Position numbers and translations under genes: made by a program | NCBI GenBank assembly: GCA_963842815.1 | Contig: CAWJHU010000001.1 | Span: 12,866-76,865 of the forward strand | DNA: 64,000 nt | DNA from: Candidatus Nomurabacteria bacterium | GTDB lineage: Bacteria; Patescibacteriota; Minisyncoccia; Phycocordibacterales; UBA9973 | Direction: 5' to 3' | The notes under the pieces: model-generated | The model's input: the letters and a program-made list of their open reading frames with translations, nothing else | What the model was told of the DNA's origin: nothing | Databases searched by the model: none | Shown here: in pieces, positions 1-53,837 of the stretch | Position numbering within the stretch: the stretch's first letter is position 1 | How the letters are laid out: each line of letters begins with the position of its first letter

Positions 1-107
1 AAAGTAGCTAGCAATTAGTTTTATTCCCAGGGGGATTTGTTTTTTATCACTCATTTTATATATATATTTAACTTCTTAATTTTTTCCTTATAAATTACTT
101 TAATCTG

Positions 108-1173: not shown

Positions 1174-3204
<2,031 letters not shown>

Positions 3205-7285: not shown

Positions 7286-7350
7286 ATAAAAATAAAATTA
7301 TAATAATACTTTATAACTTATTAATTATAGCATATCCATAAACAAACAAA

Positions 7351-7385: not shown

Positions 7386-7404
7386 TTTCAGAACTAACCA
7401 AAGA

Positions 7405-7869: not shown

Positions 7870-8044
7870 AATTTTTTATTCCGCTATGGCGGAACAACTT
7901 AATATTAACTAATAATTTTTTCCCCATCCTTAAATGGGATTTTCGACTTATTTTAAATACGCATATAATTATACCAAATATAAAAACAAAAACCACCCCA
8001 AGTGAAAAATGAGGCGGTTTTTGTTTTTCAGAACTAACCAAAGA

Positions 8045-8509
8045 TTACGGACAAACTGTAACACCAGAACCCAAAGAAGCTGATTCTTTTGAAGCCCCGG
8101 TAGAATCTACACACCAACCATCACTGGCCGTGGCAGGACCCTTCAAAGATGTAATGGCAGCCCAAGCAGTAGCAGAATCATGACAAACAGAAGAGTTTGC
8201 GGCACCTGTGGCGCTGTAGGCAAATGCATTAGAGGTAACCGTGTTTCCTGATGCTAGCTTTTGCGCAGCATTCAATATCATAGGACCGACACCTCCCGTA
8301 GCGGTACAAACACTGGCATATGTTTGGCCTGTATCATAGAAAAGTTCAGCCTGAGCACGGGCACCGGACATAGCAGCCTTAATGGCGGCATCTGAACCTT
8401 TTGTTCGGGCACTATTCAATGAAGCCAGAACAACTGAGGCCAAAATACCGATGATAGCTACCACGACCAAGAGTTCAATTAATGTAAAACCTTTTTTAAA
8501 ATTCTTCAT
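8045..8509 (-). CDS. pilA: Type IV major pilin, tandem copy 2 (identical to copy 1)
   Basis: Protein and DNA identical to 7405..7869, with a 640-bp period. Confidence 0.9.
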   Translation of the reverse strand: MKNFKKGFTLIELLVVVAIIGILASVVLASLNSARTKGSDAAIKAAMSGARAQAELFYDTGQTYASVCTATGGVGPMILNAAQKLASGNTVTSNAFAYSATGAANSSVCHDSATAWAAITSLKGPATASDGWCVDSTGASKESASLGSGVTVCP

Positions 8510-8684
8510 AATTTTTTATTCCGCTATGGCGGAACAACTTAATATTAACTAATAATTTTTTCCCCATCCTTAAATGGGATTTTCGACTTATTTTAAATAC
8601 GCATATAATTATACCAAATATAAAAACAAAAACCACCCCAAGTGAAAAATGAGGCGGTTTTTGTTTTTCAGAACTAACCAAAGA

Positions 8685-9149
8685 TTACGGACAAACTGTA
8701 ACACCAGAACCCAAAGAAGCTGATTCTTTTGAAGCCCCGGTAGAATCTACACACCAACCATCACTGGCCGTGGCAGGACCCTTCAAAGATGTAATGGCAG
8801 CCCAAGCAGTAGCAGAATCATGACAAACAGAAGAGTTTGCGGCACCTGTGGCGCTGTAGGCAAAATCTCCTGTACCTACTGTATTGGTTGCCGCTAGCTT
8901 TTGCGCAGCATTCAATATCATAGGACCGACACCTCCCGTAGCGGTACAAACACTGGCATATGTTTGGCCTGTATCATAGAAAAGTTCAGCCTGAGCACGG
9001 GCACCGGACATAGCAGCCTTAATGGCGGCATCTGAACCTTTTGTTCGGGCACTATTCAATGAAGCCAGAACAACTGAGGCCAAAATACCGATGATAGCTA
9101 CCACGACCAAGAGTTCAATTAATGTAAAACCTTTTTTAAAATTCTTCAT
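8685..9149 (-). CDS. pilA: Type IV major pilin, tandem copy 3 with a mosaic patch (AATNTVGTGDFAYS vs ASGNTVTSNAFAYS)
   Basis: Identical to copies 1 and 2 except for a ~35-nt substituted block at about 8861-8895. Confidence 0.9.
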   Translation of the reverse strand: MKNFKKGFTLIELLVVVAIIGILASVVLASLNSARTKGSDAAIKAAMSGARAQAELFYDTGQTYASVCTATGGVGPMILNAAQKLAATNTVGTGDFAYSATGAANSSVCHDSATAWAAITSLKGPATASDGWCVDSTGASKESASLGSGVTVCP

Positions 9150-9278
9150 AATTTACTTCTCTTACCCCATCCTAATGAGGTAAATTAACATCAATTAATA
9201 ATTTCGACTTATTCTTAATGAGCATATTATAACTTTTATTCTTACGGATGTGCAAAAGAGTTATCCACACCCGATTTT

Positions 9279-23116: not shown

Positions 23117-23162
23117 TGCAACACTAGTATTATACTATTTTTTAAAAAAAAGAAATGCGAAA

Positions 23163-23390
23163 ATTTGCGGTGTATGTTGGACAAAGTTCGAAACTATTTC
23201 GAGCTAAATCCAAATGATTAAAGCTAATGTGTACGCTCGACGTTATTCTTAATTTTAATATATCCACTACGCTCGGCTAATATGCTAATTCAAATGGACT
23301 CGGAAAATGGAAACAAATATTTTGGGGATTAGGATTTCCATTTTCCTCGACTGTATCTTTTGGCGAGATTCCGAATTCTGCCCGCAGGAG
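23163..23390. repeat. Left arm of an ~228-bp near-perfect inverted repeat (partner at 31588-31816)
   Basis: Direct comparison: the reverse complement of 31588-31816 matches 23163-23390 with only a handful of mismatches. Each arm also contains an internal 12-bp hairpin (ggaaaatggaaa...tttccattttcc). Confidence 0.9.
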
Positions 23391-31587: not shown

Positions 31588-31816
31588 CTCCTGCGGGCAG
31601 AATTTGAAATCTCGCCAAAAGACACAGCCGAGGAAAATGGAAATCCTAATCCCCAAAATATTTGTTTCCATTTTCCGAGTCCATTTGAATTAGCATATTA
31701 GCCGAGCGTAGTGGATATATTAAAATTAAGAATAACGTCGAGCGTACACATTAGCTTTAATCATTTGGATTTAGCTCGAAATAGTTTCGAACTTTGTCCA
31801 ACATACACCGCAAATT
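31588..31816. repeat. Right arm of the ~228-bp inverted repeat (partner at 23163-23390)
   Basis: See the left arm. Confidence 0.9.
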
Positions 31817-31832
31817 CTGGGTTAGAGCATTC

Positions 31833-31927
31833 CCGCCAAAAAATGCGTCGGCGCGAAGCGCCGACGATGTGGGCGAATCCGCACCAAACCCAAACCCCGC
31901 CAGGATTTTCCACGCTCCGCGTGGCTC
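31833..31927. repeat. Left arm of the ~95-bp inverted repeat flanking the recombinase gene (partner at 33365-33459)
   Basis: The reverse complement of 31833-31927 is about 90% identical to 33365-33459. Both arms translate to a similar EPRGAWKILAGFGFG...SSALRADAFFGG peptide. Confidence 0.85.
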
Positions 31928-31960: not shown

Positions 31961-33535
31961 TTGAACATCATGAATAATCAAACCAAAAAGTTTTTCATAT
32001 ATACTCGCAAGTCCACAGACGACAAAGACAGACAAGTCCGCAGTATTTCCGATCAACTTTCTGAATTAAAGGAATTAGCATTGAAAGGACAAATTGATGT
32101 TGTGGATGTCTTTGTCGAAAAACAGACAGCCAAAATACCAGGCCGTCCTGTTTTTAACGAAATGATGGAGAGAATGGAGAAAGGCGAAGCACAAGGTATT
32201 TTGGCGTGGCATCCGGACAGACTTGCGAGAAACTCGGTAGATGGCGGAAAGATCATCTACCTCGTTGATACAGGGATAATAAAAGATTTGAAATTCTCAA
32301 CTTTTTGGTTTGACCCCACACCGCAAGGAAAGTTCATGCTATCGATAGCATTTTCGCAATCCAAGTATTATGTGGACAATTTGTCGGAGAATATTAAGCG
32401 AGGACACAGGAACAAACTAAAAGAAGGAATATGGCCTCGAAACGCTCCCATGGGATATTTGAATGATAGCGAGAAAAAAATTATCATTCCTGACCCAGAA
32501 CGCGCTCCATATATCAAGAAAGCGTTCGAGGCATATGCAAGCGGTAAATATACTCTCCGACAAATTAGAGATATGATAACCGGACTTGGATTGCGCTCAA
32601 TGAAAAGTGAAGAACTTTCCGTCTCCGTCATGCACGAAATATTAAGAAATCCAATTTTCTGCGGACTTATGCGGTATGGGGGTGAAATACACGAGGGTAA
32701 ACATGAACCGATTATCACAAAGAAACTTTTTGACCAATGTCAGGAAGTGATGATGCGAAAATCAAAACCAAAAGAAACAGGTTTCAAAACATATTTATAC
32801 CGAGGATTTTTCCGTTGCGGAGAATGTGGTTGCTTCATTACTACAGAAACACAAAAAGGTCATAATTACCTCCGTTGTACTAAACGGAAAAATCCTTGTG
32901 CTCAAAAATATGTTCGTGAAGAAATCATCACTTCCCAGATTAAGGAAAATATACAAAAAATTTCTTTGCCGCTCGATTGGGCAAAATGGATGATTGAAGA
33001 AAACAAAAAGGATCAATCATCCGAAATCCAATCGAGCGAGATTTTTTCTCAATCGACCAAAGACGAAATTTCTCTTTTGGATTCTAAAATCGAGAAGCTG
33101 ATGAATGCGTATTTAGAGAACGCACTTTCACTAGAGGAATACAAGGAAAGTAAAAGTGCGTTAGTTAGCTCTAAACAGCTTCTCAAAGAGAAATTATTAA
33201 GTTTTGAGAAAAAATCTCATAATCGGTTCGAACTTACGGAAAAATTCCTAAAGGACAATATTACCAACGTGGAATTGGCAAACAAAAAAACAAATGAAGA
33301 AAATCTTCATTTGTTCCAAAAAGTCGGTTCGAACTTTAAAATTCATAATCGAACCGTACTTTTTGAGCCACGCGGAGCGTGGAAAATCTTGGCGGGATTT
33401 GGGTTTGGCGGGAATTCAGCCCAATCATCGGCGCTTCGCGCCGACGCATTTTTTGGCGGGGGTATTGATTTCAAATTGTTGCGGAGCCGGGCGGATTCGA
33501 ACCGCCGAGGGGTTTTGAAGCCCCTGCCTCTTTAG
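31961..33535 (+). CDS. Large serine recombinase (resolvase catalytic domain + recombinase domain + zinc ribbon)
   Basis: N-terminal 'FFIYTRKSTDDKDRQ..SISDQ' with the catalytic Ser, 'LAWHPDRLARN', and the zinc ribbon 'CGECGCF...LRCTKRK'. The last ~55 codons read through the inverted-repeat arm and antisense into tRNA-Ser. Confidence 0.85.
   Translation: MNIMNNQTKKFFIYTRKSTDDKDRQVRSISDQLSELKELALKGQIDVVDVFVEKQTAKIPGRPVFNEMMERMEKGEAQGILAWHPDRLARNSVDGGKIIYLVDTGIIKDLKFSTFWFDPTPQGKFMLSIAFSQSKYYVDNLSENIKRGHRNKLKEGIWPRNAPMGYLNDSEKKIIIPDPERAPYIKKAFEAYASGKYTLRQIRDMITGLGLRSMKSEELSVSVMHEILRNPIFCGLMRYGGEIHEGKHEPIITKKLFDQCQEVMMRKSKPKETGFKTYLYRGFFRCGECGCFITTETQKGHNYLRCTKRKNPCAQKYVREEIITSQIKENIQKISLPLDWAKWMIEENKKDQSSEIQSSEIFSQSTKDEISLLDSKIEKLMNAYLENALSLEEYKESKSALVSSKQLLKEKLLSFEKKSHNRFELTEKFLKDNITNVELANKKTNEENLHLFQKVGSNFKIHNRTVLFEPRGAWKILAGFGFGGNSAQSSALRADAFFGGGIDFKLLRSRADSNRRGVLKPLPL
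33365..33459. repeat. Right arm of the ~95-bp inverted repeat (inside the 3' end of the recombinase ORF)
   Basis: See 31833-31927. Confidence 0.85.
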
Positions 33536-44617: not shown

Positions 44618-45202
44618 TTATTCGTCCACTCCGAAACGCTTATAGTTGAAAGTTTTCATGTCGCCGAACCAATGTTTGATTTCATGCTCCGCCTCTTCCG
44701 GAGTTTCAGAACAATGGATGATATTTGTCACGCATCTTTTTTCTTTATTGGCTAAAGCCGGAGAATCTATTGAAAAATCTCCGCGAATAGTACCGACAGC
44801 CGCCTTGTAGGGCATGGTTTCACCGGCAATTTTTCGAACCACATCCACCGCATGCAATCCCTGCACTATCATTTTTACCAGCGGAGCGCTAATCATAAAA
44901 TCAATAAGCCATTTGCGGACTTCCGGACCAATTTTTGCCGGGTCAGCTGTGCCAAAATCTGAAACTAAATCATAACCGTATTTTTGATATGTATCGGAAG
45001 TTTTAGTCCCCAATCTCGTGATCCATTCTTCTTTTTTGGGATAGTGATTGTCCATTAAATCGCGAGTCGGCTGGAACATTTCAAGAGCCACAATCTTCAA
45101 ATCGCGCTGCTCAAAACGCTTAATAATCTCGCCAATCAAACCCTTTCGGATTCCGTCCGGTTTTATCATTACATATGTTTGTTCTTCTTTTGGATGTTTC
45201 AT
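44618..45202 (-). CDS. ndk: Nucleoside diphosphate kinase
   Basis: 'YVMIKPDG' and 'NIIHCSETPEEAEHEIKHWF' (with the active-site His). Confidence 0.8.
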   Translation of the reverse strand: MKHPKEEQTYVMIKPDGIRKGLIGEIIKRFEQRDLKIVALEMFQPTRDLMDNHYPKKEEWITRLGTKTSDTYQKYGYDLVSDFGTADPAKIGPEVRKWLIDFMISAPLVKMIVQGLHAVDVVRKIAGETMPYKAAVGTIRGDFSIDSPALANKEKRCVTNIIHCSETPEEAEHEIKHWFGDMKTFNYKRFGVDE

Positions 45203-45245
45203 ATTTTTATCTTAGCAAAATACATTTTAAAATACAACCTCATCC

Positions 45246-45315
45246 CCCGCCTTCTCCTGAAAGGAGAAGGGGTCAATTCCCTAGTTCCCCCTCTCCTTTC
45301 AGGAGAGGGTTGGGG
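45246..45315. repeat. Two adjacent inverted copies of the GC-rich palindromic element (ctcctgaaaggag core)
   Basis: 45255-45275 'ttctcctgaaaggagaagggg' and 45283-45318 'ccccctctcctttcaggagagggttggggtgaggtta'. The latter is the reverse complement of the ligA-embedded copy. Confidence 0.75.
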
Positions 45316-45338
45316 TGAGGTTATTGTATAATTGCTAT

Positions 45339-45728
45339 ATGCCCAGAATAATAAACAATTTTAAAAGGAAAGAAATTAGAAAAGAATTGCGAAAAAATCA
45401 AACCCCTCAGGAAACTATTCTTTGGGCTAAACTTAGGGACAATCAAACAAAATATAAATGGAAAAGACAAGTTAGTATCGGTCCTTATATTGCCGATTTT
45501 TACTGTTGGAAAAAACTTTTAGTCGTTGAACTTGATGGAGCGCAACATTTAGACAATAAGGAATATGATAAAGACAGAGAGAAATATTTTTTAAGTCTGG
45601 GGATTAAAACAATAAGATTTTGGAATAATGAAGTTAATACAAATATTGAGGGGGTAATTGAATTTATTATAAAAGAACTAGAAAAACAACCTCACTCTAG
45701 TCCTCTCATGAAAGGAGAGGGGAAATAA
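45339..45728 (+). CDS. DUF559 (Vsr/restriction-endonuclease-fold) protein
   Basis: 'IADFYCWKKLLVVELDGAQHLD...DREKYFLSLGIKTIRFWNNEV'. The C-terminal 'PLMKGEGK' is encoded by another copy of the palindromic element. Confidence 0.65.
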   Translation: MPRIINNFKRKEIRKELRKNQTPQETILWAKLRDNQTKYKWKRQVSIGPYIADFYCWKKLLVVELDGAQHLDNKEYDKDREKYFLSLGIKTIRFWNNEVNTNIEGVIEFIIKELEKQPHSSPLMKGEGK

Positions 45729-45868
45729 ATTCAGATTCCTTCTTTCCTCTTAGGAATTACTAATTAAACATTCCACTAGGTTCGGAGCATTGAAAATAAC
45801 CTCATTTTACAAGGAACTTTTTCCCTAGCATCTTAGGAATTATACATAAAGTTCGAACCTAATCGGTT

Positions 45869-46252
45869 TTGGTGTATAATAAACTCATGGTACTAGAATC
45901 ACTAGGAAATCCAAAAGAGATTAAGAAGGAAGAAATAAAAGGACACTTATTATGGACAAGAAAAGATCACTTAGATGTCGGTAGTAGCCATCACATTGAT
46001 AAGAAGTTCGGAGACGATATTCCTTGGGGAGATACTTTAAATGATAGCGATTTAGAAGATTACTGGGTTAAGAAAATAGGGGGAACTCTAAAAATGTTAA
46101 CGATGTCTCCAGAGATCATAGAAAAAATTAAAAAGGACACTGATTTCCTAAGTCCAGAATCTTTTTCTAGTGACTTAGAATACTGCAAAAAAAGAGGATT
46201 AGATATTGCTGAGGGAGAAAAGGTTTTAGAAAAACTTAAATATTTGCGGTAA
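45869..46252 (+). CDS. Hypothetical protein (127 aa)
   Basis: ORF only. Confidence 0.35.
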   Translation: MVYNKLMVLESLGNPKEIKKEEIKGHLLWTRKDHLDVGSSHHIDKKFGDDIPWGDTLNDSDLEDYWVKKIGGTLKMLTMSPEIIEKIKKDTDFLSPESFSSDLEYCKKRGLDIAEGEKVLEKLKYLR

Positions 46253-46299
46253 GTAATATCGTTTCTCGAACTTCCTCCTAGGTTCGGAGGTTAAGAAGG

Positions 46300-46345
46300 G
46301 GGCTAAATCCCCCCTCTCCTTTCAGGAGAGGGTTGGGGTGAGGTT
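46300..46345. repeat. Copy of the GC-rich palindromic element (cccccctctcctttcaggagagggttggggtgaggtta)
   Basis: Near-identical to 45283-45318. Confidence 0.75.
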
Positions 46346-46386
46346 AGATAAGATTGGAGTGAGGTTGAGTACGGGTAAGATAAATT

Positions 46387-49153
46387 TTACTGCATCGAGG
46401 TATACCTAACCATGATTTCTTTCTCCACTTCTTCACGGTCGCGGCCGTATTTCATATAGGAAAGCTGTTTCAAGCTATCTACAATTTCTTTATTCCCCTC
46501 TTTCGGCGCTAATGTTTTTATATTAAAAGGTTTTGTCGGCTGACCATTTACCAGCATACTCATGTAGGCATTATAATTATCCAACTTGGTTATGTCTTGG
46601 GCAGAAAATATTGGTTTAAATTTTGGCTCTAAAAATGTCGCGTCTTCGGTGCCTACTCGGAATACTGCCATTGAGCCGACGTTGCCGAAAACCGCATTTT
46701 TTATATTTTCTTCCAATTGAGTGATATATTGGTGGGCAATGTTTAAAGACAATCTGTATTTTCTGGCTTCGGACAAAATAGAAGCGATAGAGTCAGTGGT
46801 GACATTTTGGAATTCGTCTATATAAAGATAAAAATCATTTATTGGCTTGCCAAACATATCTACCCGAGAAAGCGCCGCCATTTGAATTTTACCGACAAGC
46901 ACCAAACCAATCAGATTCGCATTGATATCACCTAGTCTTCCTTTGGAAAGATTAACTAATAGAATTTTTTTCTCATCCATAATTTTGCGGAAATTGAAAA
47001 CGGAATTTTGCTGAAGCACTACCGGACGCATAATGTCGTTAGAAATAAAATTGTCGAATTTTGAGGAAATATAGGGCACAAAATTTGCCAAAGATTGGTC
47101 TCCTGTTGTTTGTTCAGCTGAAACCCAGAACTGCTTGATGATGGGATTTTTGCATTTAGCCAATTTCATATCGCGGAATTCTTTGTCGGCTAAAACTCGG
47201 GTGATTTCGAGTAATGTCGAGCCCGATTCCGGGTCTTCCATCACCAAGAAGGCGCTATTTCTAAAATATTGTTCAAACATCGCTCCGCCTCCGATTTTCA
47301 TATCAAAAAGTTTGTTGAAAATTCCCATCATTTCATTTACCACAAAAGTTTTCTGCTCCGGATATTTCGGGTCATATTCCAGCATATTAAGTCCCATCGG
47401 CCTTGCCGTGTAAGCCGGGTCAAAATAAATTACATCGTCAATTCTTTCCTTGGGGATGCGAGATAAAATGGTCTGAATATCCGTGCCGTGCGGGTCAATA
47501 TAACAGCAACCATCGCCATTTCTGATGTCCTGGGTAATCATATTGAGCATAATATTTGTCTTGCCCGTTCCCGTCTGGCCGATGGTATAAAAATGCCTCA
47601 TGCGGTCTTCCCGGGACATATGAATCACTGTGTCCTTTCCCCTGATAACTATTTACACCTAAAGTTATTCCTGTTTGTTGCCCTGCTACTTCCAAAGGCG
47701 CTGGGGCAATACCGGCTTTGGCTTCTTTTAATTGAGGCTGGCTTCCTATGCCCACCGGAAAATGAAATACGGAAGAAAGTTCCTTGAGATTCATTGGTAA
47801 AATTTTGTCATCCGAAAATATACGATAAGAAAAATCGTGGAAAAGTTCCTTCAACCCGCTGCCGGAAATTCTCTCAAACAAAAAAGAGTTGCTGGTTGAT
47901 TCCGTAAATTGATTGAAGGAAGATTCTATTTCCGACAAGATCATGGCGGCTCTTTCTTTAGTTTTTGCCGAAGCGACCACGCGAATGTTTGCTTTCATAA
48001 TGGTGCTTTTCATTTTGTTGTTTATTTTCTCCACTGCTCCTTCATCCACTGCACTTCTGCCAGCCATATATTTTTCCTTCACTTCCTCTTTCTTTTTTGC
48101 CCCAAATAAAAAATCTTTTGAGGCTTTAAAAAATGCTTTGTTGAATTTATAAAAATTATCCGCCGCGTGCCTGACAGACATTCCGCTTTTAACATCATCC
48201 AAAATTAAATGAAATTCATCTATGAATTTTTCTCCGGCAGGAGCTATGACCAGCTGAATAGCCGCACCCTCTCCCTGGGTTTCCAATCTTGAAAAAACAT
48301 TCAGCAGTGTGTTCATCGGGTCATGGTCGATTTGGTCATAGGTTTTTATGGGAAGCACGGAACGCTCCGAAAAATTAGCATAGGCCCCGATGGAAGCGCC
48401 TTTTTCATTAAAAATATTATAATCATCCGTTACTTCGCGAATTTTCGCATCATGATAAAAAGCGAGAATTTGCTTTTCAAAAAGCGAGATGTGTTTATTG
48501 GGGATGGCGGCATAAATTATTACTTCGTCCGTGTCGTTGCTGAGGGCTATTTCCAAGGTATAATAATTTTCTTTTTCATTATTTTTCCCCTCCGAAATGG
48601 ACTGCATGCCAGCATAAAATTGTTCCATGGCACCAATAAATTCTTTGAAACTTTTTTGCTTGTCGGCTTCATCTCTGGGAGGCGGAAGAGTTATTTCAAA
48701 AAGGGTCATATTCAGAGATTTATAAAGAGGCGTTCCTTCTTTCAGGTCGGACACTTTGCCAGTTTTCAAATATTGAATCAAGATGCGATGAAAATCGTCA
48801 TCAATGTGCGGATTGGCCATCATTTCTACCACAGAGAGCGCGTTGCGAATTCCCTTGGTTATGACAATACCCAAGAGTTCTTCCATAATGCTGTCGTGGG
48901 TTTCCGGCTTGAGCGCAAGCACTATTTTTTCCGCTTCCTTTTTATTCAGAACATTGTCTTTATGAATAACTTCTTCCAGAGGTTTTTGTTTATATTCTCC
49001 TATGACATCTCTGACTGCATTTTCGTTTGCATGTTCAAAGCGTCCCTTGTCTACGAGCTCCTGTTCCCGCTTGGCCACATGGGCGCGCAAATAATCAAGC
49101 TCTTCTTCCGGAGTTTTGAACTTGGGCATTCCACTCAAAAGTGATCCTTCCAT
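46387..49153 (-). CDS. Large P-loop ATPase with a TraD/VirD4/TrwB-like (DUF87-type) C-terminal domain and a ~550-aa N-terminal extension; split by a frameshift near 47600-47650
   Basis: Walker A 'GQTGTGKT', and a C-terminal 'RKYRLSLNIAHQYITQLEENIKNAVFGNVGSMAVFRVGTEDATFL' typical of coupling-protein ATPases. The two ORFs overlap by 134 nt in different frames. Confidence 0.55.
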
Positions 49154-49175
49154 AAATATATTATAGCACAGCTAT

Positions 49176-49259
49176 TTTGAAAGAATTTTAAGAGTCGTGG
49201 GTTCCCTGTCCTTATGACTCCGAGGGCGAAGGCTCAAAAATTCTTTCAAAATAGCTGTG
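49176..49259. other. 24-bp perfect inverted repeat (gcacagctattttgaaagaatttt / aaaattctttcaaaatagctgtgc) enclosing a 36-nt structured loop, between map and the ATPase gene
   Basis: Read directly from the sequence. The loop itself contains a gagtc...gactc pairing. Confidence 0.7.
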
Positions 49260-49260
49260 C

Positions 49261-50031
49261 TTAGATTTTAGTTAATATTTCAGGCTCACCTTCGGTAATC
49301 AAAATCGTATGTTCAAAATGCGCGCTTCTTTTTCCGTCGGCAGTGCGAAAAGTCCACCCATCTTTATCCAGAACCACATTTTTTGTCCCATTATTCAGCA
49401 TAGGTTCTATGGCTATAATCATTCCGGGCACAAGTTTTGCTCCTGTCCCAGCCTTACCAAAATTCGGCACATAGGGGTCTTCATGGATAGCCCGTCCGAC
49501 GCCATGCCCGGACAAAATTTCCACTATTCCGTATCGATATTTGCGAACAAAATTTTCTATGGAATTTCCAATATCTCCTATCCTGTTCCCTTCCTGGGCC
49601 GCATTGATGCCAACCTGTAATGCTTTTTCGGTTACTTCCAAAAGTTTTCTGGAAGATGCGCTTACTTCCCCCACCGGCACGGTAATGGCCATATCAGTAA
49701 AAAGATTTTTGTGCTTCAACAATAAATCCAGAGAAACAATATCCCCTTCCTGTAAAATTTTATTTTTGTTTGGGATACCATGCACCACTTCATTGTTTAC
49801 CGAAACACACAAAGATGCCGGGTAGGGAGAATCCGCTCCTTCTGGACGATAATGCAACGAGGCCGGCTCATCTCCCATTTCTCTGATTAATTTCTCCGCG
49901 TATTTATCCAACTCCCAAGTGGAAATTCCCGGTTTAACTATTTCTTTTACTTTATACAAAACGGTAGCCAGCCTTTTGCCGCCTTCTCGTATTATTTCTA
50001 TTTCCTTTGGCGTTTTAATTATTATTGCCAT
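49261..50031 (-). CDS. map: Methionine aminopeptidase type I
   Basis: 256 aa with metal ligands in 'DMAITVPVG', 'HGVGRAIHE' and 'EHTILIT' contexts. Confidence 0.85.
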   Translation of the reverse strand: MAIIIKTPKEIEIIREGGKRLATVLYKVKEIVKPGISTWELDKYAEKLIREMGDEPASLHYRPEGADSPYPASLCVSVNNEVVHGIPNKNKILQEGDIVSLDLLLKHKNLFTDMAITVPVGEVSASSRKLLEVTEKALQVGINAAQEGNRIGDIGNSIENFVRKYRYGIVEILSGHGVGRAIHEDPYVPNFGKAGTGAKLVPGMIIAIEPMLNNGTKNVVLDKDGWTFRTADGKRSAHFEHTILITEGEPEILTKI

Positions 50032-50075
50032 ATGTTTACATTACAGAACAAAAACGTAATTTGCAAATATATCCA

Positions 50076-50108
50076 CCCCGCCCTTTGGGCACCCCTCAAG
50101 AGGGGAAT
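50076..50108. repeat. Inverted-repeat arm flanking DUF559 gene 2 (ccaccccgccctttgggcacccctcaagaggggaatt)
   Basis: The reverse complement matches 50505-50552 (aattcccctcttgaggggtgc...gcggggtgg). Confidence 0.7.
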
Positions 50109-50569
50109 TTTAATTCCAACTCATTTTTTCTTTTGCTTATTATTTCTACCACTAATTGATAAACATTGCCTATATTTTTCTTCACATCAATATCAGGTAT
50201 TCTAATTACCTGTAAATTTACACTCTGCATAAAATTGTCTCTTTCAGCATCATATTCTTCTTTATCATCATGACTTGAACCATCTATTTCAAAAACCAAG
50301 CCTAACTCGGGAATAAAAAAATCAACAACATAATTACCTATTATGACTTGCCGATCAATATCAAAACCTAATTTCTTTTTGTCTTTAAATGTTTGCCAAA
50401 ATATAACTTCTGATAAATTTCCTGCTCTTCTTAAATCTTTTGCCCTATCAGTTAATAATTTATTTTTTGGAATTTTCCAGTATGGGTATAAGGATTTTGG
50501 GTCCCATAATTCCCCTCTTGAGGGGTGCTTCGACTTTAGTCGGAGCGGGGTGGGTAATTTATTTTCCAT
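50096..50569 (-). CDS. DUF559 (Vsr/REase-fold) protein, second copy
   Basis: 'VIIGNYVVDFFIPELGLVFEIDGSSHDDKEEYDAERDNFMQSVNLQVIRIPDIDV'. The N-terminus is partly encoded by the flanking inverted repeat. Confidence 0.65.
   Translation of the reverse strand: MENKLPTPLRLKSKHPSRGELWDPKSLYPYWKIPKNKLLTDRAKDLRRAGNLSEVIFWQTFKDKKKLGFDIDRQVIIGNYVVDFFIPELGLVFEIDGSSHDDKEEYDAERDNFMQSVNLQVIRIPDIDVKKNIGNVYQLVVEIISKRKNELELKFPS
50505..50552. repeat. Inverted-repeat arm flanking DUF559 gene 2
   Basis: See 50076-50108. Confidence 0.7.
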
Positions 50570-51245
50570 ATTTAGCTAGTAAATCTTCACGTGTCATAAA
50601 TGCTTTTGCTATGGGTCTGTTTTCTTCAAGAAAATGTTCTTTTCTTTCTTCTTCTGAAATATCACCAACAATAATAAAGCCTAATTTTTCTAAAAGTAAA
50701 GGATTTTTTGCAACTATCCAAGAAATTGCATATACTCTTTTAATATTAGGGTAAGATTTTATTAATTCAGCTAATTTAATTAGACCATTTATTATTTCTT
50801 TTTTAAAATTTCCTATTCCTTCTTTTTTTATAAATTCTGTTGCAGGAAGAAGATGAATAAGTGTTTCGTCTTCTTCTCCTAATCCTGCAAATAGAACTTC
50901 GCTCAGTTTCAAGTTTCCATCCTTACTTAAAATTTCCTGTCTTCCTATTTTTTCAAAAATTTCCGGTTGTGTAGCTTTTATTATTATAAATGGTTCTAAA
51001 ACTTTTAATAAATGAGATATAGAAGTTTGTCTATCTTTTATGTTTACGCTTTCTCTGACTCCTTTAACGATTCCTTCTTTATCAAAAACCAAACCACCTC
51101 TTTGATAGGACTCCAATCTTAAAATAAATTTATCTATATTAGAATCTAATTCTCGTGGATTATCAAAAAGTCTCTCAAGACTATTTTTTAATTCTTCTTT
51201 GGCAGTATTGATTTTTATCTGTTCTGAAAGTGGATTTTGTTCCAT
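50559..51245 (-). CDS. Hypothetical protein
   Basis: ORF of ~228 aa taken from the internal Met 'MEQNPLSEQ'. I recognise no motif. Confidence 0.35.
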   Translation of the reverse strand: MEQNPLSEQIKINTAKEELKNSLERLFDNPRELDSNIDKFILRLESYQRGGLVFDKEGIVKGVRESVNIKDRQTSISHLLKVLEPFIIIKATQPEIFEKIGRQEILSKDGNLKLSEVLFAGLGEEDETLIHLLPATEFIKKEGIGNFKKEIINGLIKLAELIKSYPNIKRVYAISWIVAKNPLLLEKLGFIIVGDISEEERKEHFLEENRPIAKAFMTREDLLAKYGK

Positions 51246-51250
51246 TTTAT

Positions 51251-51931
51251 TTAACTGATTACCGTTCCTAAAAACTTTTCCCCATTTAAACACTTAGCCA
51301 AATTATCTATCGGTTTGCCGTTCATAATAATCACTTCCATTCCTTCTTTTTCTGCCACCTCCGAGGCAACCGGATCAAATGGCGAATTAAGGCCCGGGTT
51401 CCATTCTTTGGGAATTAATTTTCTGTATTCTGGCCAAGAAATTTGCTCAAATTTCTTGGCATTCGGGTTTATCCTTGGATCGGAATCATAGACATAATCA
51501 GTGTTAGATAAATTAATTATCTTTTTTGCGCCAAGTGTTTTTGCTCCTACAACCGCATCAAAATCCGTACTGCGCCCCGGTCCGAAAGCCGAACCGATGA
51601 CAATCGGTTTTTCAAAAGTAAAATGAGTGGAAAGATCCGCGATTACTTCTTTATGCGCATATTCGCCAAAAATAATTCTTAATAATTCCGCATTTAATTT
51701 TAAAGAGGCTATGCCTATCCAATCAAGGTCTTCCGGAGAGGGATTAGACAATTCTTTGGCGGCATCTTGATACTTCCGGCAGATTTTTCCTCCACCGGTA
51801 ATAATCACAAACTTTCTACCTTTCACGATTTGAGAAAGAATCAGGGCTTTAAAATCTCTTAAAAAATTCAGGTCCAAATTTTCAGGGATAATAAGCGAGC
51901 CCCCGAGTGAAATTACTATGGTTTCTTCCAT
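51251..51931 (-). CDS. pyrH: UMP kinase (amino-acid-kinase fold)
   Basis: 'VISLGGSLI', 'VIITGGG', and 'KFEQISWPEY' typical of UMP kinases. Confidence 0.7.
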   Translation of the reverse strand: MEETIVISLGGSLIIPENLDLNFLRDFKALILSQIVKGRKFVIITGGGKICRKYQDAAKELSNPSPEDLDWIGIASLKLNAELLRIIFGEYAHKEVIADLSTHFTFEKPIVIGSAFGPGRSTDFDAVVGAKTLGAKKIINLSNTDYVYDSDPRINPNAKKFEQISWPEYRKLIPKEWNPGLNSPFDPVASEVAEKEGMEVIIMNGKPIDNLAKCLNGEKFLGTVIS

Positions 51932-51934
51932 GTA

Positions 51935-52534
51935 TTAAAAATTTAATGCCTTAATAATATCTTTATGAACATTTTCTATGGTTTGCTCTCCATTTATTTC
52001 AATAAAGTTATATCCGGTTTTATTTTTAAAATATTCAACAGAGGGCAATACATCTCTTTCATACCAGCCAAGTCTATTTTTTATTTTTTCCGGAGTATCA
52101 TCGGAACGTTTTCTTTCCATCATTCGGGCATAGGACCATTCTTTTGAAACATTTATTAAGATAATATTTGGGTTTTTTATTTTATAAAAATCAAAAGCAG
52201 AATCAAGGGCAATCGCTTCTTCTTTTCTTCGGCAAACACCATCTAATATCATATCTTCCTTGCCGGTAAAATTTTTAACCATGAAATCAGTCCATATCCA
52301 TATGGGTAAAAATACTGGAATTAAATGTCCTTCTTTTAAAATATTTTGAATATTTTTATTAGTTAAAGCCTCCCCCTTTGTGAGTTCTCTAAAGGTGCTA
52401 CCTGTTTCAACACACAAAACATCCCTTCCGTTATTTTTTAAGTATTTTGCTAATAATTCGGTTTGGACCCCTTTTCCACACCCAGATCGCCCAAAAAATA
52501 CAAAAGCTTGTGAATTCATACAAAAAGAATACAC
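51935..52534 (-). CDS. adk: Adenylate kinase (short form)
   Basis: P-loop 'FFGRSGCGKG' and a position immediately after secY. Confidence 0.65.
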   Translation of the reverse strand: MYSFCMNSQAFVFFGRSGCGKGVQTELLAKYLKNNGRDVLCVETGSTFRELTKGEALTNKNIQNILKEGHLIPVFLPIWIWTDFMVKNFTGKEDMILDGVCRRKEEAIALDSAFDFYKIKNPNIILINVSKEWSYARMMERKRSDDTPEKIKNRLGWYERDVLPSVEYFKNKTGYNFIEINGEQTIENVHKDIIKALNF

Positions 52535-52565: not shown

Positions 52566-53837
52566 TTAGTATTCCCTCATTGATATTTGGGCATCCACTT
52601 TTTTGATGAGGTCAAGCACCACAGAAACAACGATGAGAAGAGCTGTCCCGCCGAGAGCGATGGCGGTAATGCCGGTCAAGGAACGCACAATGAGAGGCAA
52701 AACGGCAATGAAGCCGAGGAAAACTGCGCCGAGCAAAGTAATACGACTCAGAACTTTTGAAATGTATTGAGAAGTAGATAATCCCGGACGGATACCCGGA
52801 ATAAATGCGCCATTTTTTTGCAGATTGGTAGCTAACGCTTCAGGGTCAAAAGTGACCGCAGTATAAAAGTAAGTGAAAAGAAATACCAAAATAAAGTAAA
52901 GCACGGCATAAAGCACGCTGGTTTGGGTAAAGGAAACAAGCACTTTGGAGATGGAAAGCAAAACAGAATTTGTGGAACTTGCCAAGAAATTACCAATCAT
53001 TTGAGGAAAAAGCAGAAGAGAAAGGGCAAAAATTATCGGAATAACTCCGGCTTGGTTAACCCGCAGAGGAATATAGGTTGAACCTCCGCCATACATTTTC
53101 ATTCCTCTTACCTGCTTGGCATAAGTCACCGGAATAGGACGTTCCGCTTCCGTAACCACCACCACTCCGGCAATCACAGCCGCGCCGGCTACGATAAACA
53201 TTAGAAAGAGAGGAATTTGGGAAACATCAAAAGTAAAGAGCAACTGGCTTACTTCCGTCGGAATTCTTGAAACAATACCGGCGAAGATTATTAAGGACAC
53301 CCCATTTCCAATACCGAATTCGGACATAAGTTCACCAAGCCACATCAACAGCATTGAACCTGAAACCACAATAATTAAATTGGTAACGCGGTCAAAAGCC
53401 GTCAAATTTACTAAGATCTTTTGGCCTTCCAAAATAGCCAAAAGGCTAAATCCCTGGATGGCGGCCAAAGGAATGGTAAGCATTCTTGAATATTGGGTGA
53501 ATTTCTTCCTGCCCGCTTCGCCTTCTTCATGATAAATTCTTTTTAAAGCAGGAACCATGATGGTCAGAAGTTGCATGATAATGGAACTGGTGATGTAAGG
53601 CCCCACTCCAAGCATTATAATGGAAAGATTGGAAAGCCCGCCGCCGGAAAATATATTCAGGATGCCGAAGAATTGGTTATTATTGAGAAATTGATTGAGG
53701 GCCACCGTATCAATTCCCGGGATGGGAACAGCGGCCAGTAATCTGAAAATTACCAAAGCAAAAAGAACAAACAAAACTCTCTTTCGCAAAATGGTGTCGG
53801 TCCAAATCAGTTTTATTTTATTCCAAAAATTTTCCAT
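52566..53837 (-). CDS. secY: Preprotein translocase subunit SecY
   Basis: 423 aa with 10 TM helices and a position after rplO. Confidence 0.9.
   Translation of the reverse strand: MENFWNKIKLIWTDTILRKRVLFVLFALVIFRLLAAVPIPGIDTVALNQFLNNNQFFGILNIFSGGGLSNLSIIMLGVGPYITSSIIMQLLTIMVPALKRIYHEEGEAGRKKFTQYSRMLTIPLAAIQGFSLLAILEGQKILVNLTAFDRVTNLIIVVSGSMLLMWLGELMSEFGIGNGVSLIIFAGIVSRIPTEVSQLLFTFDVSQIPLFLMFIVAGAAVIAGVVVVTEAERPIPVTYAKQVRGMKMYGGGSTYIPLRVNQAGVIPIIFALSLLLFPQMIGNFLASSTNSVLLSISKVLVSFTQTSVLYAVLYFILVFLFTYFYTAVTFDPEALATNLQKNGAFIPGIRPGLSTSQYISKVLSRITLLGAVFLGFIAVLPLIVRSLTGITAIALGGTALLIVVSVVLDLIKKVDAQISMREY

What the first reader, a model, noticed from the sequence alone, without database searches (positions are those of the whole stretch)
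50070..50560. DUF559 endonuclease gene carried between ~35-48-bp inverted repeats, inserted inside the secY-adk...map ribosomal block
The second DUF559 (Vsr-like REase fold) gene is bracketed by inverted GC-rich repeats. The arm 'aattcccctcttgaggggtgc...gcggggtgg' at 50505-50552 is matched by its reverse complement at 50076-50108. The protein N-terminus (PSRGELW...) is translated from the repeat itself. Together with pyrH and a hypothetical gene, this cassette interrupts the usually contiguous adk-map stretch. Two DUF559 genes in 5 kb, each married to palindromic repeats, suggests a small mobile or selfish endonuclease cassette rather than a housekeeping function.
Basis: partly seen in the sequence, partly recalled or inferred. 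Interest (0 to 1): 0.55.

Follow-up and report, generated by a model that had tools for sequence, protein, structure and literature searches.

The report
Hairpin-flanked selfish nuclease gene cassette
A small nuclease gene sits between two inverted copies of a conserved double-hairpin DNA repeat; the same gene-plus-repeat module recurs in about ten bacterial phyla, usually spliced in frame into restriction-modification genes, and I found no published description of it.

Summary
DUF559 gene 50096-50569 (-) is bracketed by inverted arms at 50070-50109 and 50508-50556: 21/21 nt plus 11/12 nt match, around a non-homologous middle hairpin.

The arms are not a local accident. In 73 of 80 related loci from about ten phyla, the DUF559 gene lies between inverted copies of one conserved unit: ATTCCCCTC-loop-GAGGGG-T-[variable hairpin]-CGGGGTGG. 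The first hairpin and the tail are invariant. Every pair of the second hairpin shows compensatory changes. The unit variant follows the nuclease clade, not the host phylum. The window's second DUF559 (45339-45728) carries its own variant, one copy of which sits in frame inside ligA.

Relatives show empty sites: pyrH abuts map in most of 71 relatives, and none has a DUF559 there. So pyrH is ancestral, and the insert is the 244-aa hypothetical gene plus DUF559.

Outside Patescibacteria (candidate phyla radiation, CPR), 47 distinct copies are embedded in frame, without stop codons, in large host ORFs. Of 18 hosts tested, 17 are restriction-modification genes, hit at recurrent sites. Uninterrupted alleles are the norm (116 of 120).

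Best reading: a selfish nuclease-plus-repeat module, REP/RAYT-like in logic and homing-like in behaviour. That the nuclease acts on the hairpins is inferred, not shown.

The parts
50508..50556 (+). 5' arm relative to the gene: one twin-hairpin unit, read here on the + strand (G-rich strand). Sequence: AATTCCCCTCTTGAGGGG-T-GCTTCGACTTTAGTCGGAGC-GGGGTGGGTA. On the gene strand it is translated in frame as residues about 5-20, LPTPLRLKSKHPSRGE.
   Evidence: Inverted-repeat pairs I1 and I11. Regex unit W 50513-50553. The DNA fold gives two hairpins, z=-3.6. It belongs to the 41-nt unit class, in which the first hairpin is invariant and all 8 pairs of the second hairpin covary.
50070..50109 (-). 3' arm relative to the gene: the same unit in inverted orientation. 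On the - strand it reads AATTCCCCTCTTGAGGGG-T-GCCCAAAGGGC-GGGGTGGATA. The gene's TGA stop codon (50096-50098) lies in the loop and 3' stem of the first hairpin.
   Evidence: The protein ending ...LKFPS* or ...ELFPS* is kept in most of the 120 listed homologues. The DNA arm is seen at the 3' end of nearly all Patescibacteria (CPR) loci L001-L018.
50096..50569 (-). DUF559-2 gene: a 157-aa Vsr-fold PD-(D/E)xK nuclease. Its ATG (50567-50569) overlaps the stop codon of the upstream 244-aa ORF within ATGGAAAATAA, so the two genes look translationally coupled inside the secY-adk-pyrH operon.
   Evidence: Pfam PF04480, E=1.5e-23. PDB 3HRL, E=1.4e-8. The AlphaFold2 core matches 3HRL (TM-score normalised to the target, TMt, 0.85) and I-Bth0305I (TMt 0.77), while residues 1-39 are low-confidence. 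D83, E94, D96 and H100 are invariant in 80 of 80 sequences. There are 849 homologues.
50559..51293 (-). Hypothetical ORF of 244 aa (the real start is probably the ATG near 51245). It was co-inserted with DUF559-2 between pyrH and map. Function unknown; probably variable cargo or a neighbour.
   Evidence: No Pfam hit. No tblastn hit in any of 160 related loci. Relatives have pyrH next to map, or other inserts in this slot.
45339..45728 (+). DUF559-1 gene: 129 aa, 33% identical to DUF559-2. Its C-terminal residues ...QPHSSPLMKGEGK* are encoded by an A-variant unit.
   Evidence: Pfam E=1.1e-32. Pairwise comparison. The ending ...PHPSPLLKGEGK* is kept in most of the 120 listed homologues. The copy in L152 is 93% identical and sits in the same slot.
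45237..45325 (.). Gene-less doublet of two inverted A-variant units (45237-45280 and 45285-45325), immediately upstream of DUF559-1. The inner copy is the 5' arm of DUF559-1. The A variant is a CCCTCTCC-N5-GGAGAGGG hairpin followed by GGGGTGAGG, with no second hairpin.
   Evidence: (D5, D17, I8, I24).
45685..45725 (+). A-variant unit that forms the 3' arm of DUF559-1. It lies inside the end of the CDS and is inverted relative to 45285-45325.
   Evidence: I8: 41 nt, 83%.
46308..46346 (+). A-variant unit downstream of orf127 (45869-46252). Together with 45685-45725 it brackets orf127 in inverted orientation.
   Evidence: D17: 37 nt, 100% identical to 45287-45323; I11. orf127 is conserved in L152 at 71%.
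2856..2892 (+). Dispersed A-variant unit 42 kb away. It is inserted in frame in ligA (1585-3204, - strand) and encodes [12 protein letters not shown] just before the KxDG adenylation motif.
   Evidence: (D5, I4, I5). Aligned to solved LigA 1B04, the segment is an extra stretch of about 9 aa.

Best explanation
Window 50070-50556 is one free-standing copy of a widespread composite genetic module: a Vsr-fold DUF559 nuclease gene bracketed by two inverted copies of a roughly 40-nt twin-hairpin DNA unit.

The unit reads ATTCCCCTC-loop-GAGGGG, one T, a variable second hairpin, then CGGGGTGG(A/T). The same unit also exists without the gene, as solo copies, inverted doublets and tandem arrays. It is built so that it can sit in frame inside coding sequence.

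In this genome the module arrived together with a 244-aa ORF in the pyrH-map junction of the secY-adk-pyrH-map operon. It is expressed parasitically: same strand as the operon, with its start codon overlapping the upstream stop codon. A second, 33%-identical DUF559 paralogue with its own unit variant sits 5 kb away.

Proposed mechanism (inferred, not shown): the nuclease recognises its cognate hairpin unit or an unoccupied target, as folded or cruciform DNA. It nicks or cuts there, and recombinational repair copies unit-bounded DNA. This is homing-like spread of the gene, and REP/RAYT-like or MITE-like spread of the gene-less units.

Shown: the anatomy, structural selection on the unit, co-variation of unit and nuclease, insertion polymorphism, in-frame residence, and an intact catalytic site. 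Inferred: that the nuclease acts on the units, and how copies are made.
For: 1. The inverted arms are real and non-random.
2. The trait is family-wide. In 73 of 80 loci the flanking inverted repeat exceeds the 95th percentile of shifted controls (observed median 20, control median 9, control maximum 14). Of 219 units found in 1.37 Mb, 169 lie within 300 nt of a DUF559 gene end.
3. The unit is under structural selection. The first hairpin and the GGGGTGG tail are invariant. All 4 of 4 pairs (54 units) and all 8 of 8 pairs (22 units, including the window's arm) of the second hairpin show compensatory changes, and 0 of 500 shuffles reach the observed covariation score.
4. The unit variant tracks the nuclease clade, not the host phylum. 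Within this one genome, DUF559-1 pairs with variant A and DUF559-2 with variant B.
5. Unit and nuclease co-occur. In 615 kb of relatives chosen by pyrH alone, A-type hairpins occur only in L152, the only locus with DUF559-1. B units occur only in L143, 59 nt after pyrH at a contig end.
6. Presence or absence varies. The module occupies different slots in the window, L001 and L009, and the pyrH-map junction is empty in relatives. Of 120 type ISP homologues, 116 are uninterrupted at the site filled in L075.
7. There are 47 distinct in-frame embedded copies, and 17 of 18 tested hosts are restriction-modification genes with recurrent insertion sites. Solo units lie in frame in neighbouring restriction-modification genes and in ligA.
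8. The nuclease fold is confirmed, and the catalytic-type residues are invariant in 80 of 80 sequences, embedded copies included.
9. A Vsr-fold homing endonuclease is already known (PMC3239194), as is a non-splicing in-frame homing insert in a methylase gene (PMC11855218).
Against: - Nothing shows that the protein binds or cuts the unit. Physical linkage alone would also produce co-inheritance and co-variation.
- No target-site duplication is detectable.
- No near-identical multi-copy set within one genome was seen. L043 and L047 proved to be the same sequence.
- Two opposite arm orientations exist relative to the gene, which is unlike fixed transposon ends.
- DUF559-1 is 93% identical between the window and L152, while ndk is 82% and pyrH 66%. 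That looks like long vertical maintenance under purifying selection, closer to a domesticated RAYT-like gene than to a fast-cycling selfish element.
- The unit census covers only up to 10-kb flanks, not whole genomes.
- Phylum labels come from metagenome bins.
- No copies were found on plasmids, and only one weak phage hit.
Confidence: 0.6

Rival explanations
1. The units are an independent palindromic repeat family (REP-, RPE- or MITE-like) spread by some other enzyme or by replication slippage. DUF559 would be an ordinary repair or housekeeping nuclease whose gene ends merely tolerate or attract them.
For: Units also occur inside ligA and inside restriction-modification genes, away from DUF559. 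No biochemical link is shown. Two arm orientations exist.
Against: Of 219 units, 169 lie within 300 nt of a DUF559 end. A-type units are absent from 615 kb of relatives except in the single locus that carries the cognate nuclease, and the only B-type unit there lies at a contig end. The unit variant co-varies with the nuclease clade across phyla and within this genome. The gene itself is patchy among close relatives.
Confidence: 0.12
2. The arms act at the RNA level, as terminators, mRNA stabilisers or an autoregulatory structure for the DUF559 transcript. They would not be mobile-element ends.
For: They are GC-rich hairpins at both gene ends. One weak terminator-like call overlaps the 3' arm. 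REP sequences are known to stabilise mRNA (my own knowledge).
Against: - Units occur in both orientations relative to transcription and in different reading frames (FPSxGGV, NSPPLEGW, IPLxxEG, TPPKEGN).
- The second hairpin keeps Watson-Crick pairs almost exclusively, so it folds equally well on either strand.
- The units lie inside long host ORFs that must be read through.
- In the window, the essential map gene lies downstream on the same strand.
- No Rfam family matches.
Confidence: 0.07
3. The inverted arms are recombination sites of an invertible switch. Flipping the DUF559 segment would turn the host gene or operon on and off (phase variation).
For: Inverted repeats flank a segment inside restriction-modification genes, which are classic phase-variable loci. 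'DUF559 domain-containing protein' is 14-fold enriched among predicted programmed-inversion targets (PMC9881135, Table 1).
Against: None of the 47 distinct embedded copies is antisense to its host ORF. The free-standing copies checked are not flanked by antisense host ORF halves. No recombinase gene was noticed next to the window's cassettes, but this was not tested systematically. The enrichment in that paper comes from a sequence-feature model and was not validated for DUF559.
Confidence: 0.08
4. In restriction-modification genes the DUF559 segment is a bona fide accessory nuclease domain, fused in by domain shuffling. The 'arms' would be Pro/Gly-rich linkers conserved as protein. The Patescibacteria (CPR) copies would be detached domains.
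For: Reading frames are intact and catalytic residues are conserved in embedded copies. Restriction-modification enzymes are modular (my own knowledge).
Against: - The same DNA unit encodes unrelated peptides, depending on orientation and frame.
- Base-pair covariation shows nucleic-acid-level selection.
- Insertions are found in S, M and R subunits, and in type ISP, IIG and III enzymes, at linker positions.
- 97% of close type ISP homologues lack the segment.
- Units are intergenic in Patescibacteria (CPR).
Confidence: 0.06

Closest known systems
REP / REPIN - RAYT systems (REPtrons)
   Same: A short GC-rich palindromic repeat family. The associated single gene is flanked by inverted copies of its own repeat. 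Gene-less copies occur as inverted doublets. Repeat variant and enzyme co-evolve. Inheritance can be long-term and vertical (PMC3116915, PMC3337134, bioRxiv 10.1101/2021.07.10.451892; listed).
   Different: The enzyme here is a Vsr-fold PD-(D/E)xK hydrolytic nuclease, not an HUH Y1 transposase. There is no GTAG or CGTC tag. The unit has two hairpins plus a conserved G-rich tail. Copy number looks low and local, within a few kb of the gene. Units and the whole module commonly lie in frame inside genes.
I-Bth0305I / EDxHD family of Vsr-like homing endonucleases
   Same: A selfish nuclease with a Vsr-like catalytic core; the window model matches 3R3P at TMt 0.77 (TM-score normalised to the target). 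Insertion at conserved sites of host genes, with filled and empty alleles (PMC3239194).
   Different: Those enzymes sit in self-splicing group I introns or inteins and carry NUMOD/HTH DNA-binding modules. Here no intron or intein was recognised (no Rfam match in the window region; junction residues do not fit an intein). The element is flanked by conserved hairpin inverted repeats, and it is either translated straight through as part of the host protein or free-standing.
[quoted passage not shown]
   Same: An insertion in a DNA methylase gene that leaves the host reading frame open, has no detectable splicing element, carries an endonuclease, and shows homing-like presence or absence (PMC11855218).
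   Different: That nuclease is HNH and is encoded out of frame. No flanking hairpin repeat family or gene-less derivatives are described, and it is found in phages. Here the nuclease is Vsr-fold and in frame, the hosts are cellular restriction-modification genes of many types, and a conserved repeat unit co-varies with the nuclease.
Rickettsia palindromic elements (RPEs)
   Same: Short palindromic repeats inserted in frame into protein-coding genes and translated as extra peptide segments (my own knowledge: Ogata et al. 2000). Here this is seen in ligA and in hsdM and hsdR.
   Different: RPEs are about 100-150 bp, are restricted to Rickettsia, and have no associated nuclease gene. No sequence relationship was tested.
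E. coli Vsr (very short patch repair endonuclease)
   Same: The same fold superfamily and the same catalytic logic.
   Different: Vsr is a housekeeping partner of Dcm and nicks at T:G mismatches. It has a zinc site and intercalating tryptophans, and no flanking repeats. The fold match is weak (E=0.38, TMt 0.40).

Membership tests
DUF559 / Vsr-like PD-(D/E)xK nucleases (Pfam PF04480) | Profile match above Pfam's gathering score | tested here: met
   83.2 bits (DUF559-2) and 112.5 bits (DUF559-1) against a cut-off of 20.6.
DUF559 / Vsr-like PD-(D/E)xK nucleases (Pfam PF04480) | Restriction-endonuclease-like alpha/beta core resembling 3HRL, Vsr and I-Bth0305I | tested here: met
   AlphaFold2 core pLDDT 80-96. 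Foldseek: 3HRL E=1e-5, TMt 0.85; 3R3P TMt 0.77; 1VSR weak.
DUF559 / Vsr-like PD-(D/E)xK nucleases (Pfam PF04480) | Conserved acidic and histidine catalytic residues (D...E-x-D...H) | tested here: met
   D83, E94, D96 and H100 are invariant in 80 of 80 aligned sequences.
DUF559 / Vsr-like PD-(D/E)xK nucleases (Pfam PF04480) | Nuclease activity | not testable with these tools
   Needs biochemistry.
REP-RAYT (REPtron) | Gene flanked by inverted copies of a palindromic repeat that also occurs elsewhere in the genome | tested here: met
   the ligA copy lies 42 kb away.
REP-RAYT (REPtron) | The associated gene encodes an HUH Y1 (IS200/IS605-like) transposase | tested here: not met
   The gene is PF04480 with a Vsr fold.
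REP-RAYT (REPtron) | Conserved GTAG or CGTC tetranucleotide at the hairpin foot | tested here: not met
   The unit ends are ATTCCCC... and ...GGGGTGG(A/T).
REP-RAYT (REPtron) | Tens to hundreds of repeat copies per genome | tested here: inconclusive
   Only 2 B units and 5 A units in 64 kb. Whole genomes were not available. Copies cluster within a few kb of the gene.
Homing endonuclease elements (intron-, intein-borne or free-standing) | Filled and empty alleles at the same site of homologous genes or loci | tested here: met
   Type ISP: 4 filled and 116 empty of 120. The pyrH-map junction is empty in relatives.
Homing endonuclease elements (intron-, intein-borne or free-standing) | Recurrent insertion next to conserved host motifs | tested here: met
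   Six recurrent sites in type ISP, HsdR, HsdS, type IIG and N6_N4 methyltransferase genes. L067 and L075 carry different element clades at the same site.
Homing endonuclease elements (intron-, intein-borne or free-standing) | Self-splicing intron or intein surrounding the nuclease | tested here: not met
   No Rfam intron family in the window region. Junction residues (N or F at the start, GN followed by W, E, L, S or F at the end) do not fit intein nucleophile rules. Embedded loci were not scanned with Rfam.
Homing endonuclease elements (intron-, intein-borne or free-standing) | The nuclease cleaves the empty allele | not testable with these tools
   Needs an experiment.
IS / MITE with terminal inverted repeats | Terminal inverted repeats | tested here: met
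IS / MITE with terminal inverted repeats | Target-site duplication | tested here: not met
   No k-mer duplication above shuffled pairing at any offset, for 212 units.
IS / MITE with terminal inverted repeats | A transposase of a known class (DDE, HUH, serine or tyrosine) | tested here: not met
   The only gene between the arms is DUF559.
Invertons / programmed inversions | Both orientations of the segment observed | tested here: not met
   0 of 47 embedded copies are antisense to the host ORF, and no antisense host halves were found around free copies. Assemblies record only the majority state.
Intrinsic terminators | GC-rich hairpin followed by a T-run on the transcribed strand | tested here: not met
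   The position after the tail is A or T, and the following positions are not conserved. Only weak consensus hits. The units lie inside ORFs.

The most novel reading that the evidence does not exclude
This is a previously unrecognised class of mobile element: a non-splicing, in-frame 'parasitic domain'. It would consist of a Vsr-fold nuclease bounded by structure-specific twin-hairpin ends and would colonise restriction-modification genes across bacterial phyla, with free-standing forms in Patescibacteria (CPR). It would seed gene-less hairpin units nearby and propagate by a nuclease-plus-repair route distinct from DDE, HUH, serine or tyrosine transposition and from intron or intein homing. 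If the nuclease reads folded DNA hairpins, it would also be a new kind of structure-guided DNA nuclease.
Probability: 0.35. Interest if true: 0.9.

Novelty: new variant of a known kind. Interest (0 to 1): 0.75.

Why it matters
DUF559 is one of the largest uncharacterised nuclease families. Tying a large branch of it to a conserved, covarying DNA hairpin unit gives the family its first concrete candidate substrate, and it makes the function directly testable with oligonucleotides.

If the link holds, three things follow:
1. It adds a second enzyme class to the REP/RAYT type of long-lived intragenomic replicator.
2. It explains the unexplained repeat-encoded peptides (PSRGE, PLLKGEG, SPPLEGW, TPPKEGN) at the ends of DUF559 proteins and inside restriction-modification proteins.
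3. It probably explains why 'DUF559' appears among predicted inversion targets in PMC9881135.

The in-frame colonisation of type I, ISP, IIG and III restriction-modification genes also raises a question: do these defence enzymes still work with a 150-250-aa nuclease cassette inside them? That matters for restriction-modification annotation and for methylome interpretation.

For annotation of this window, the practical points are these. pyrH belongs to the conserved block. The DUF559 N-terminus and stop codon are repeat-derived. ligA carries a repeat-encoded insertion.

Tried and rejected
- Rfam at permissive E-values over 44900-51000: only sub-threshold miRNA-type noise on the hairpins, no family.
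- Terminator reading: rejected.
- Target-site duplication: none found.
- Inverted (OFF-state) copies: none found.
- Within-genome duplicate copies, to define the element ends: L043/L047 and L079/L080 turned out to be the same sequence deposited twice, so they were uninformative.
- Plasmid search (none at E<=1e-15) and phage search (one 27.6%-identity hit): no sign of carriage on known mobile replicons.
- Literature: all 25 papers mentioning DUF559, COG2852, REPIN/RAYT, literal unit sequences (0 occurrences of the 12-14-mers), I-Bth0305I/EDxHD, and in-frame or restriction-modification insertion queries. None describes this unit or its DUF559 association. Only a table entry in PMC9881135 and the analogous ShiLan element were found.
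- Homologues of the 244-aa hypothetical ORF: none in any fetched locus, so whether it is cargo remains open.
- Intein reading of embedded copies: rejected on junction residues.
- I did not build a covariance model; regex plus fixed-length alignments were enough.
Full report
**1. The observation**

The window is low-GC DNA (38.8%) from a Patescibacteria / candidate phyla radiation (CPR) bacterium. Homologues are annotated Paceibacterota or Nomurabacteria. On the minus strand the gene order is:
- secY, 52566-53837
- adk, 51935-52534
- an AA_kinase / pyrH-like gene, 51251-51931
- a 244-aa ORF with no family, 50559-51293
- a 157-aa DUF559 gene, 50096-50569
- map, 49261-50031

The DUF559 gene is bracketed by inverted repeats. 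50089-50109 pairs with 50508-50528 (21 nt, perfect), and 50070-50081 pairs with 50545-50556 (11 of 12). The middles are non-homologous, and each is itself a small palindrome.

The core hairpin CCCCTC-NN-GAGGGG occurs twice in 64 kb, both times here, against 0.08 expected. The 5' arm is translated (LPTPLRLKSKHPSRGE). The TGA stop codon lies in the first hairpin of the 3' arm.

The second DUF559 gene (45339-45728, + strand; 33% identical) is bracketed in the same way by a different repeat, variant A: CCCTCTCC-N5-GGAGAGGG followed by GGGGTGAGG. Five A copies exist in the window. Four surround DUF559-1 and the neighbouring orf127. One lies 42 kb away, in frame inside ligA. There it adds about 9 residues relative to solved LigA 1B04, just before the KxDG motif.

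**2. The arms are a family trait, not a local accident**

DUF559-2 has 849 homologues. Most of the top 120 start with an arm-encoded peptide (variants such as STPSRLKSSHPSRGE, HPPRLAKASHPSRGE, STPSFDYKVHPSRGE, sometimes 2-3 in tandem) and end with ...LKFPS* or ...ELFPS*. A minority lack the N-terminal arm. DUF559-1 homologues end with ...PHPSPLLKGEGK*, or with related PSPFQEKG or SPQPSPGKER endings in more distant members.

A scan of one genome per species returned 80 loci. In 73 of them, the best inverted repeat between the upstream and downstream flanks exceeds the 95th percentile of shifted controls (observed median 20; control median 9, maximum 14). A pattern for the unit finds 219 copies in 1.37 Mb, 169 of them within 300 nt of a DUF559 gene end.

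**3. Anatomy of the unit**

Read on the G-rich strand, the unit is ATTCCCCTC(C)-loop-(G)GAGGGG, one T, a second hairpin, then CGGGGTGG(A/T).
- Flank profiles fix the ends at A(-4) and at +1, and show no target-site duplication.
- In 54 distinct 35-nt-class units, the 7-bp first hairpin and the tail are invariant. All four pairs of the second hairpin show compensatory changes (56 cells, 98% paired; 0 of 500 shuffles reach the covariation score; slid controls collapse).
- In 22 Patescibacteria (CPR) 41-nt-class units, including the window's 5' arm, all eight second-hairpin pairs covary.
- As single-stranded DNA the units fold into the two predicted hairpins.
- Pairing is almost purely Watson-Crick, so either strand can fold.
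- Core lengths cluster at 32, 35, 38 and 41 nt, and tandem arrays have periods of 33, 39 or 42 nt. This 3-nt periodicity fits residence in coding sequence.
- In Bacteroidota-type copies, the upstream and downstream arms carry different second hairpins (an NNN-GAA-NNN type against a CCC-TTTA-GGG type). The two ends are therefore distinguishable.

**4. Unit and nuclease travel and change together**

A neighbour-joining tree of 78 nucleases gives four groups.

| Group | Members (by record label) | Unit variant | Arm arrangement |
|---|---|---|---|
| 1 | Brocadiaceae, Gracilibacteria, one Ignavibacteria, some Patescibacteria (CPR) | CCCCTC-2-GAGGGG / GGGGTGG | G-orientation upstream, inverted downstream |
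| 2 | Paceibacteria, including the window | same variant | opposite arrangement; the 3' hairpin supplies a TGA |
| 3 | Methylotenera, one Bacteroidota, Ignavibacteria, Marinimicrobia, Nitrospirota | CCCCTTC-3..5-GAAGGGG / GGGGTAG | mostly as group 1 (downstream arm often not detected) |
| 4 | most Bacteroidota, Desulfobulbaceae, Cloacimonadota | CCCCTCC-3-GGAGGGG / GGGGTGG | as group 1 |

The variant follows the protein clade rather than the host label. The window adds a within-genome control: two paralogues, two variants.

In 615 kb of relatives selected only by pyrH, A-type hairpins occur in exactly one locus. That locus, L152 (three copies), is the only one carrying DUF559-1. B units occur only in L143, 59 nt after pyrH at a contig end.

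**5. Insertion polymorphism**

Two close relatives share synteny with the window but place the module differently:
- L009: pyrH - DUF559-2 type - orf178 - unit - map.
- L001: DUF559-2 type between the VirB4-like gene and ndk, where the window has orf127 plus DUF559-1.
- L009 has an unrelated ORF in that VirB4-ndk slot.

Among the pyrH-selected metagenomic relatives, adk precedes pyrH in 62 of 62. The pyrH-map gap is at most 70 nt in 38 of 71 and at most 300 nt in 66 of 71. None has DUF559 there. The few larger gaps hold other genes, for example a 576-aa Cys-rich ORF in L082.

The window's insert is the 244-aa ORF plus DUF559-2.

L152 shares the orf127 plus DUF559-1 insertion. There DUF559-1 is 93% identical, against 82% for ndk and 66% for pyrH. 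That indicates purifying selection and vertical persistence.

**6. The unexpected wider picture**

Outside Patescibacteria (CPR), 49 of the 80 loci (47 distinct) have the whole module, unit-DUF559-unit, embedded in frame with no stop codons inside a 600-1375-aa host ORF. Pfam on 18 hosts finds restriction-modification domains in 17:
- HsdS
- HsdR (between the HSDR_N and SWI2/SNF2 domains)
- type ISP (splitting Type_ISP_C)
- Eco57I/MmeI-like type IIG enzymes
- HSDR_N_2 + N6_Mtase
- N6_Mtase + Methylase_S
- N6_N4_Mtase

Insertion sites recur next to conserved motifs. Examples are '...LGLxFTxEK | FAPIDxLDYIYAVLHSP' in 12 type ISP genes, '...AAYHQYYAVN...G | ...GVVWHTQGSGKS' in 9 HsdR genes, and '...WFVDFRFP |' in 9 HsdS genes. 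Elements of different clades (L067 and L075) occupy the same type ISP site.

I searched with the L075 host region after splicing the element out. It returned 120 homologues: 116 are uninterrupted across the junction ('...FTNEKETTENTFAPIDIL...') and 4 carry PF04480 there.

Of 36 units lying away from the gene in non-CPR loci, 31 are in frame inside long ORFs. Those inspected are neighbouring restriction-modification genes, for example the same hsdM loop in three genomes in both orientations, and four extra units in one hsdR.

The same DNA unit is read in different frames and orientations (FPSxGGV..RGG, NSPPLEGW..GVV, IPLxxEG.., ..TPPKEGN). Conservation is therefore at the nucleic-acid level, not the protein level.

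Residues D83, E94, D96 and H100 are invariant in all 80 aligned nucleases, embedded or free.

**7. The protein**

- PF04480.
- The closest solved sequence is 3HRL.
- The AlphaFold2 model has a confident core. The arm-encoded residues 1-39 are low-confidence.
- The core matches 3HRL (TMt 0.85), the PvuRts1I nuclease domain and the I-Bth0305I catalytic domain (TMt 0.77), and weakly matches Vsr.

**8. Interpretation**

Shown: a composite of a conserved, structurally constrained DNA unit and a catalytically intact Vsr-fold nuclease. The composite is inherited and transferred as one. It is present or absent at given sites, seeds gene-less units nearby, and is built to live inside reading frames.

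Inferred: the nuclease recognises its cognate unit or an empty site, and copies arise by repair. This would be homing-like for the gene and REP/RAYT-like for the units. A purely hydrolytic PD-(D/E)xK enzyme, together with the absence of target-site duplications, fits nuclease-plus-repair better than transposase chemistry.

In the window the copy is free-standing. It sits in the operon on the same strand, with its ATG overlapping the upstream stop codon (ATGGAAAATAA). Expression is therefore probably parasitic on the operon.

Caveats:
- There is no biochemical link between protein and unit.
- Linkage alone could produce the co-variation.
- Two arm orientations exist.
- Persistence is vertical in at least one case.
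- Only flanks of up to 10 kb were sampled.
- Taxon labels come from metagenome bins.

**9. Rivals**

- Independent repeat family plus a housekeeping nuclease: disfavoured by the co-occurrence and co-variation.
- RNA hairpins or terminators: disfavoured by use of both orientations, several frames, in-ORF positions and the lack of T-runs.
- Invertible switch: 0 of 47 embedded copies are antisense to their host. The enrichment of 'DUF559' among predicted inversion targets in PMC9881135 is probably a by-product of these arms.
- Functional accessory domain: disfavoured by DNA-level conservation, the variety of hosts, and 97% empty alleles.

**10. Comparison with known systems, and novelty**

The closest in logic is REP/REPIN-RAYT. 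The defining HUH transposase and GTAG tag were tested and not met.

The closest in behaviour are the Vsr-like EDxHD homing endonucleases (PMC3239194) and the recently described non-splicing in-frame ShiLan insertion in a phage methylase (PMC11855218). Here there is no intron or intein, the nuclease family is different, and a conserved flanking repeat is present.

In-frame palindromic insertions recall Rickettsia RPEs (my own knowledge).

I found no paper describing this unit or its association with DUF559. I rate it a new variant of a known kind, the selfish nuclease-plus-repeat module. There is a real chance that it is a distinct class of in-frame mobile element specialised on restriction-modification genes.

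Noticed in passing
window 1585-3204 (- strand), unit at 2856-2892: NAD-dependent DNA ligase (ligA) carries an A-variant hairpin unit in frame. It encodes [12 protein letters not shown], about 9 extra residues relative to solved LigA 1B04, immediately before the KxDG adenylation motif. This is an RPE-like insertion in an essential gene.
   Followed up: partly
L019-L025, L035, L038-L061, L063-L077, L079 (related loci): Outside Patescibacteria (CPR), the whole unit-DUF559-unit module is embedded in frame, with no stop codons, in restriction-modification genes (HsdS, HsdR, type ISP, type IIG, N6_N4 methyltransferases) at recurrent sites next to conserved motifs. 17 of 18 hosts tested by Pfam are restriction-modification genes.
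   Followed up: yes
L072 8903-12790 (hsdR) and 5293-5331 (hsdM); L061 7263-7297; L066 5681-5716: Solo units pepper neighbouring restriction-modification genes in frame. There are four extra units in one hsdR. The same hsdM loop ('WFMxRxK | RDRSNEILFID') is hit in three genomes, in both orientations.
   Followed up: partly
window 46387-47628 and 47495-49153 (- strand): A VirB4/TraC-like ATPase is split into two overlapping ORFs (552 and 413 aa). Relatives L001 and L009 have a single 922-924-aa ORF. This could be a frameshift, a pseudogene or a sequencing error.
   Followed up: no
window 45869-46252 with 45685-45725 and 46308-46346: orf127 has no convincing family and is 71% conserved in L152. 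It is itself bracketed by inverted A units, so the local array reads: unit, unit, DUF559-1, unit, orf127, unit.
   Followed up: partly
pyrH-map junction: L082 6719-8449, L131, L101/L102; map-virB4 junction: L001 1015-1527: The pyrH-map junction is an insertion hotspot in this clade: a 576-aa Cys-rich ORF in L082, and 0.8-2.1-kb inserts in the others. L001 has a hicBA-like toxin-antitoxin pair between map and the VirB4-like gene.
   Followed up: no
window 7161-9230: A tandem repeat with a 640-bp period and 3-4 copies, 93-100% identical.
   Followed up: no
window 23162-23390 / 31588-31816, and 31832-31927 / 33365-33460: A 229-bp inverted repeat (98%) brackets 8.2 kb. Next to it, a 96-bp inverted repeat (90%) brackets 1.4 kb. 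This could be a composite element or an invertible segment.
   Followed up: no
L040 60-477 against L049 10036-10453: The DUF559 element is 93% identical at DNA level between a bin labelled Flavobacterium psychrophilum and one labelled Sphingomonadales, with similarity confined to the element. This is either horizontal transfer or a binning error.
   Followed up: no
L028, L029, L032 (Gracilibacteria): The DUF559 frames contain in-frame TGA codons, as expected for genetic code 25. Whether these copies are embedded in host genes could not be scored with table 11.
   Followed up: no
L045 10857-11023; L059 7863-7981; L046 9904-9980: Head-to-tail tandem arrays of units with periods of 33 or 42 nt lie inside ORFs and give repeated peptides such as NSPPQEGQGVV. 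Some units lack the second hairpin, like the window's A variant.
   Followed up: no
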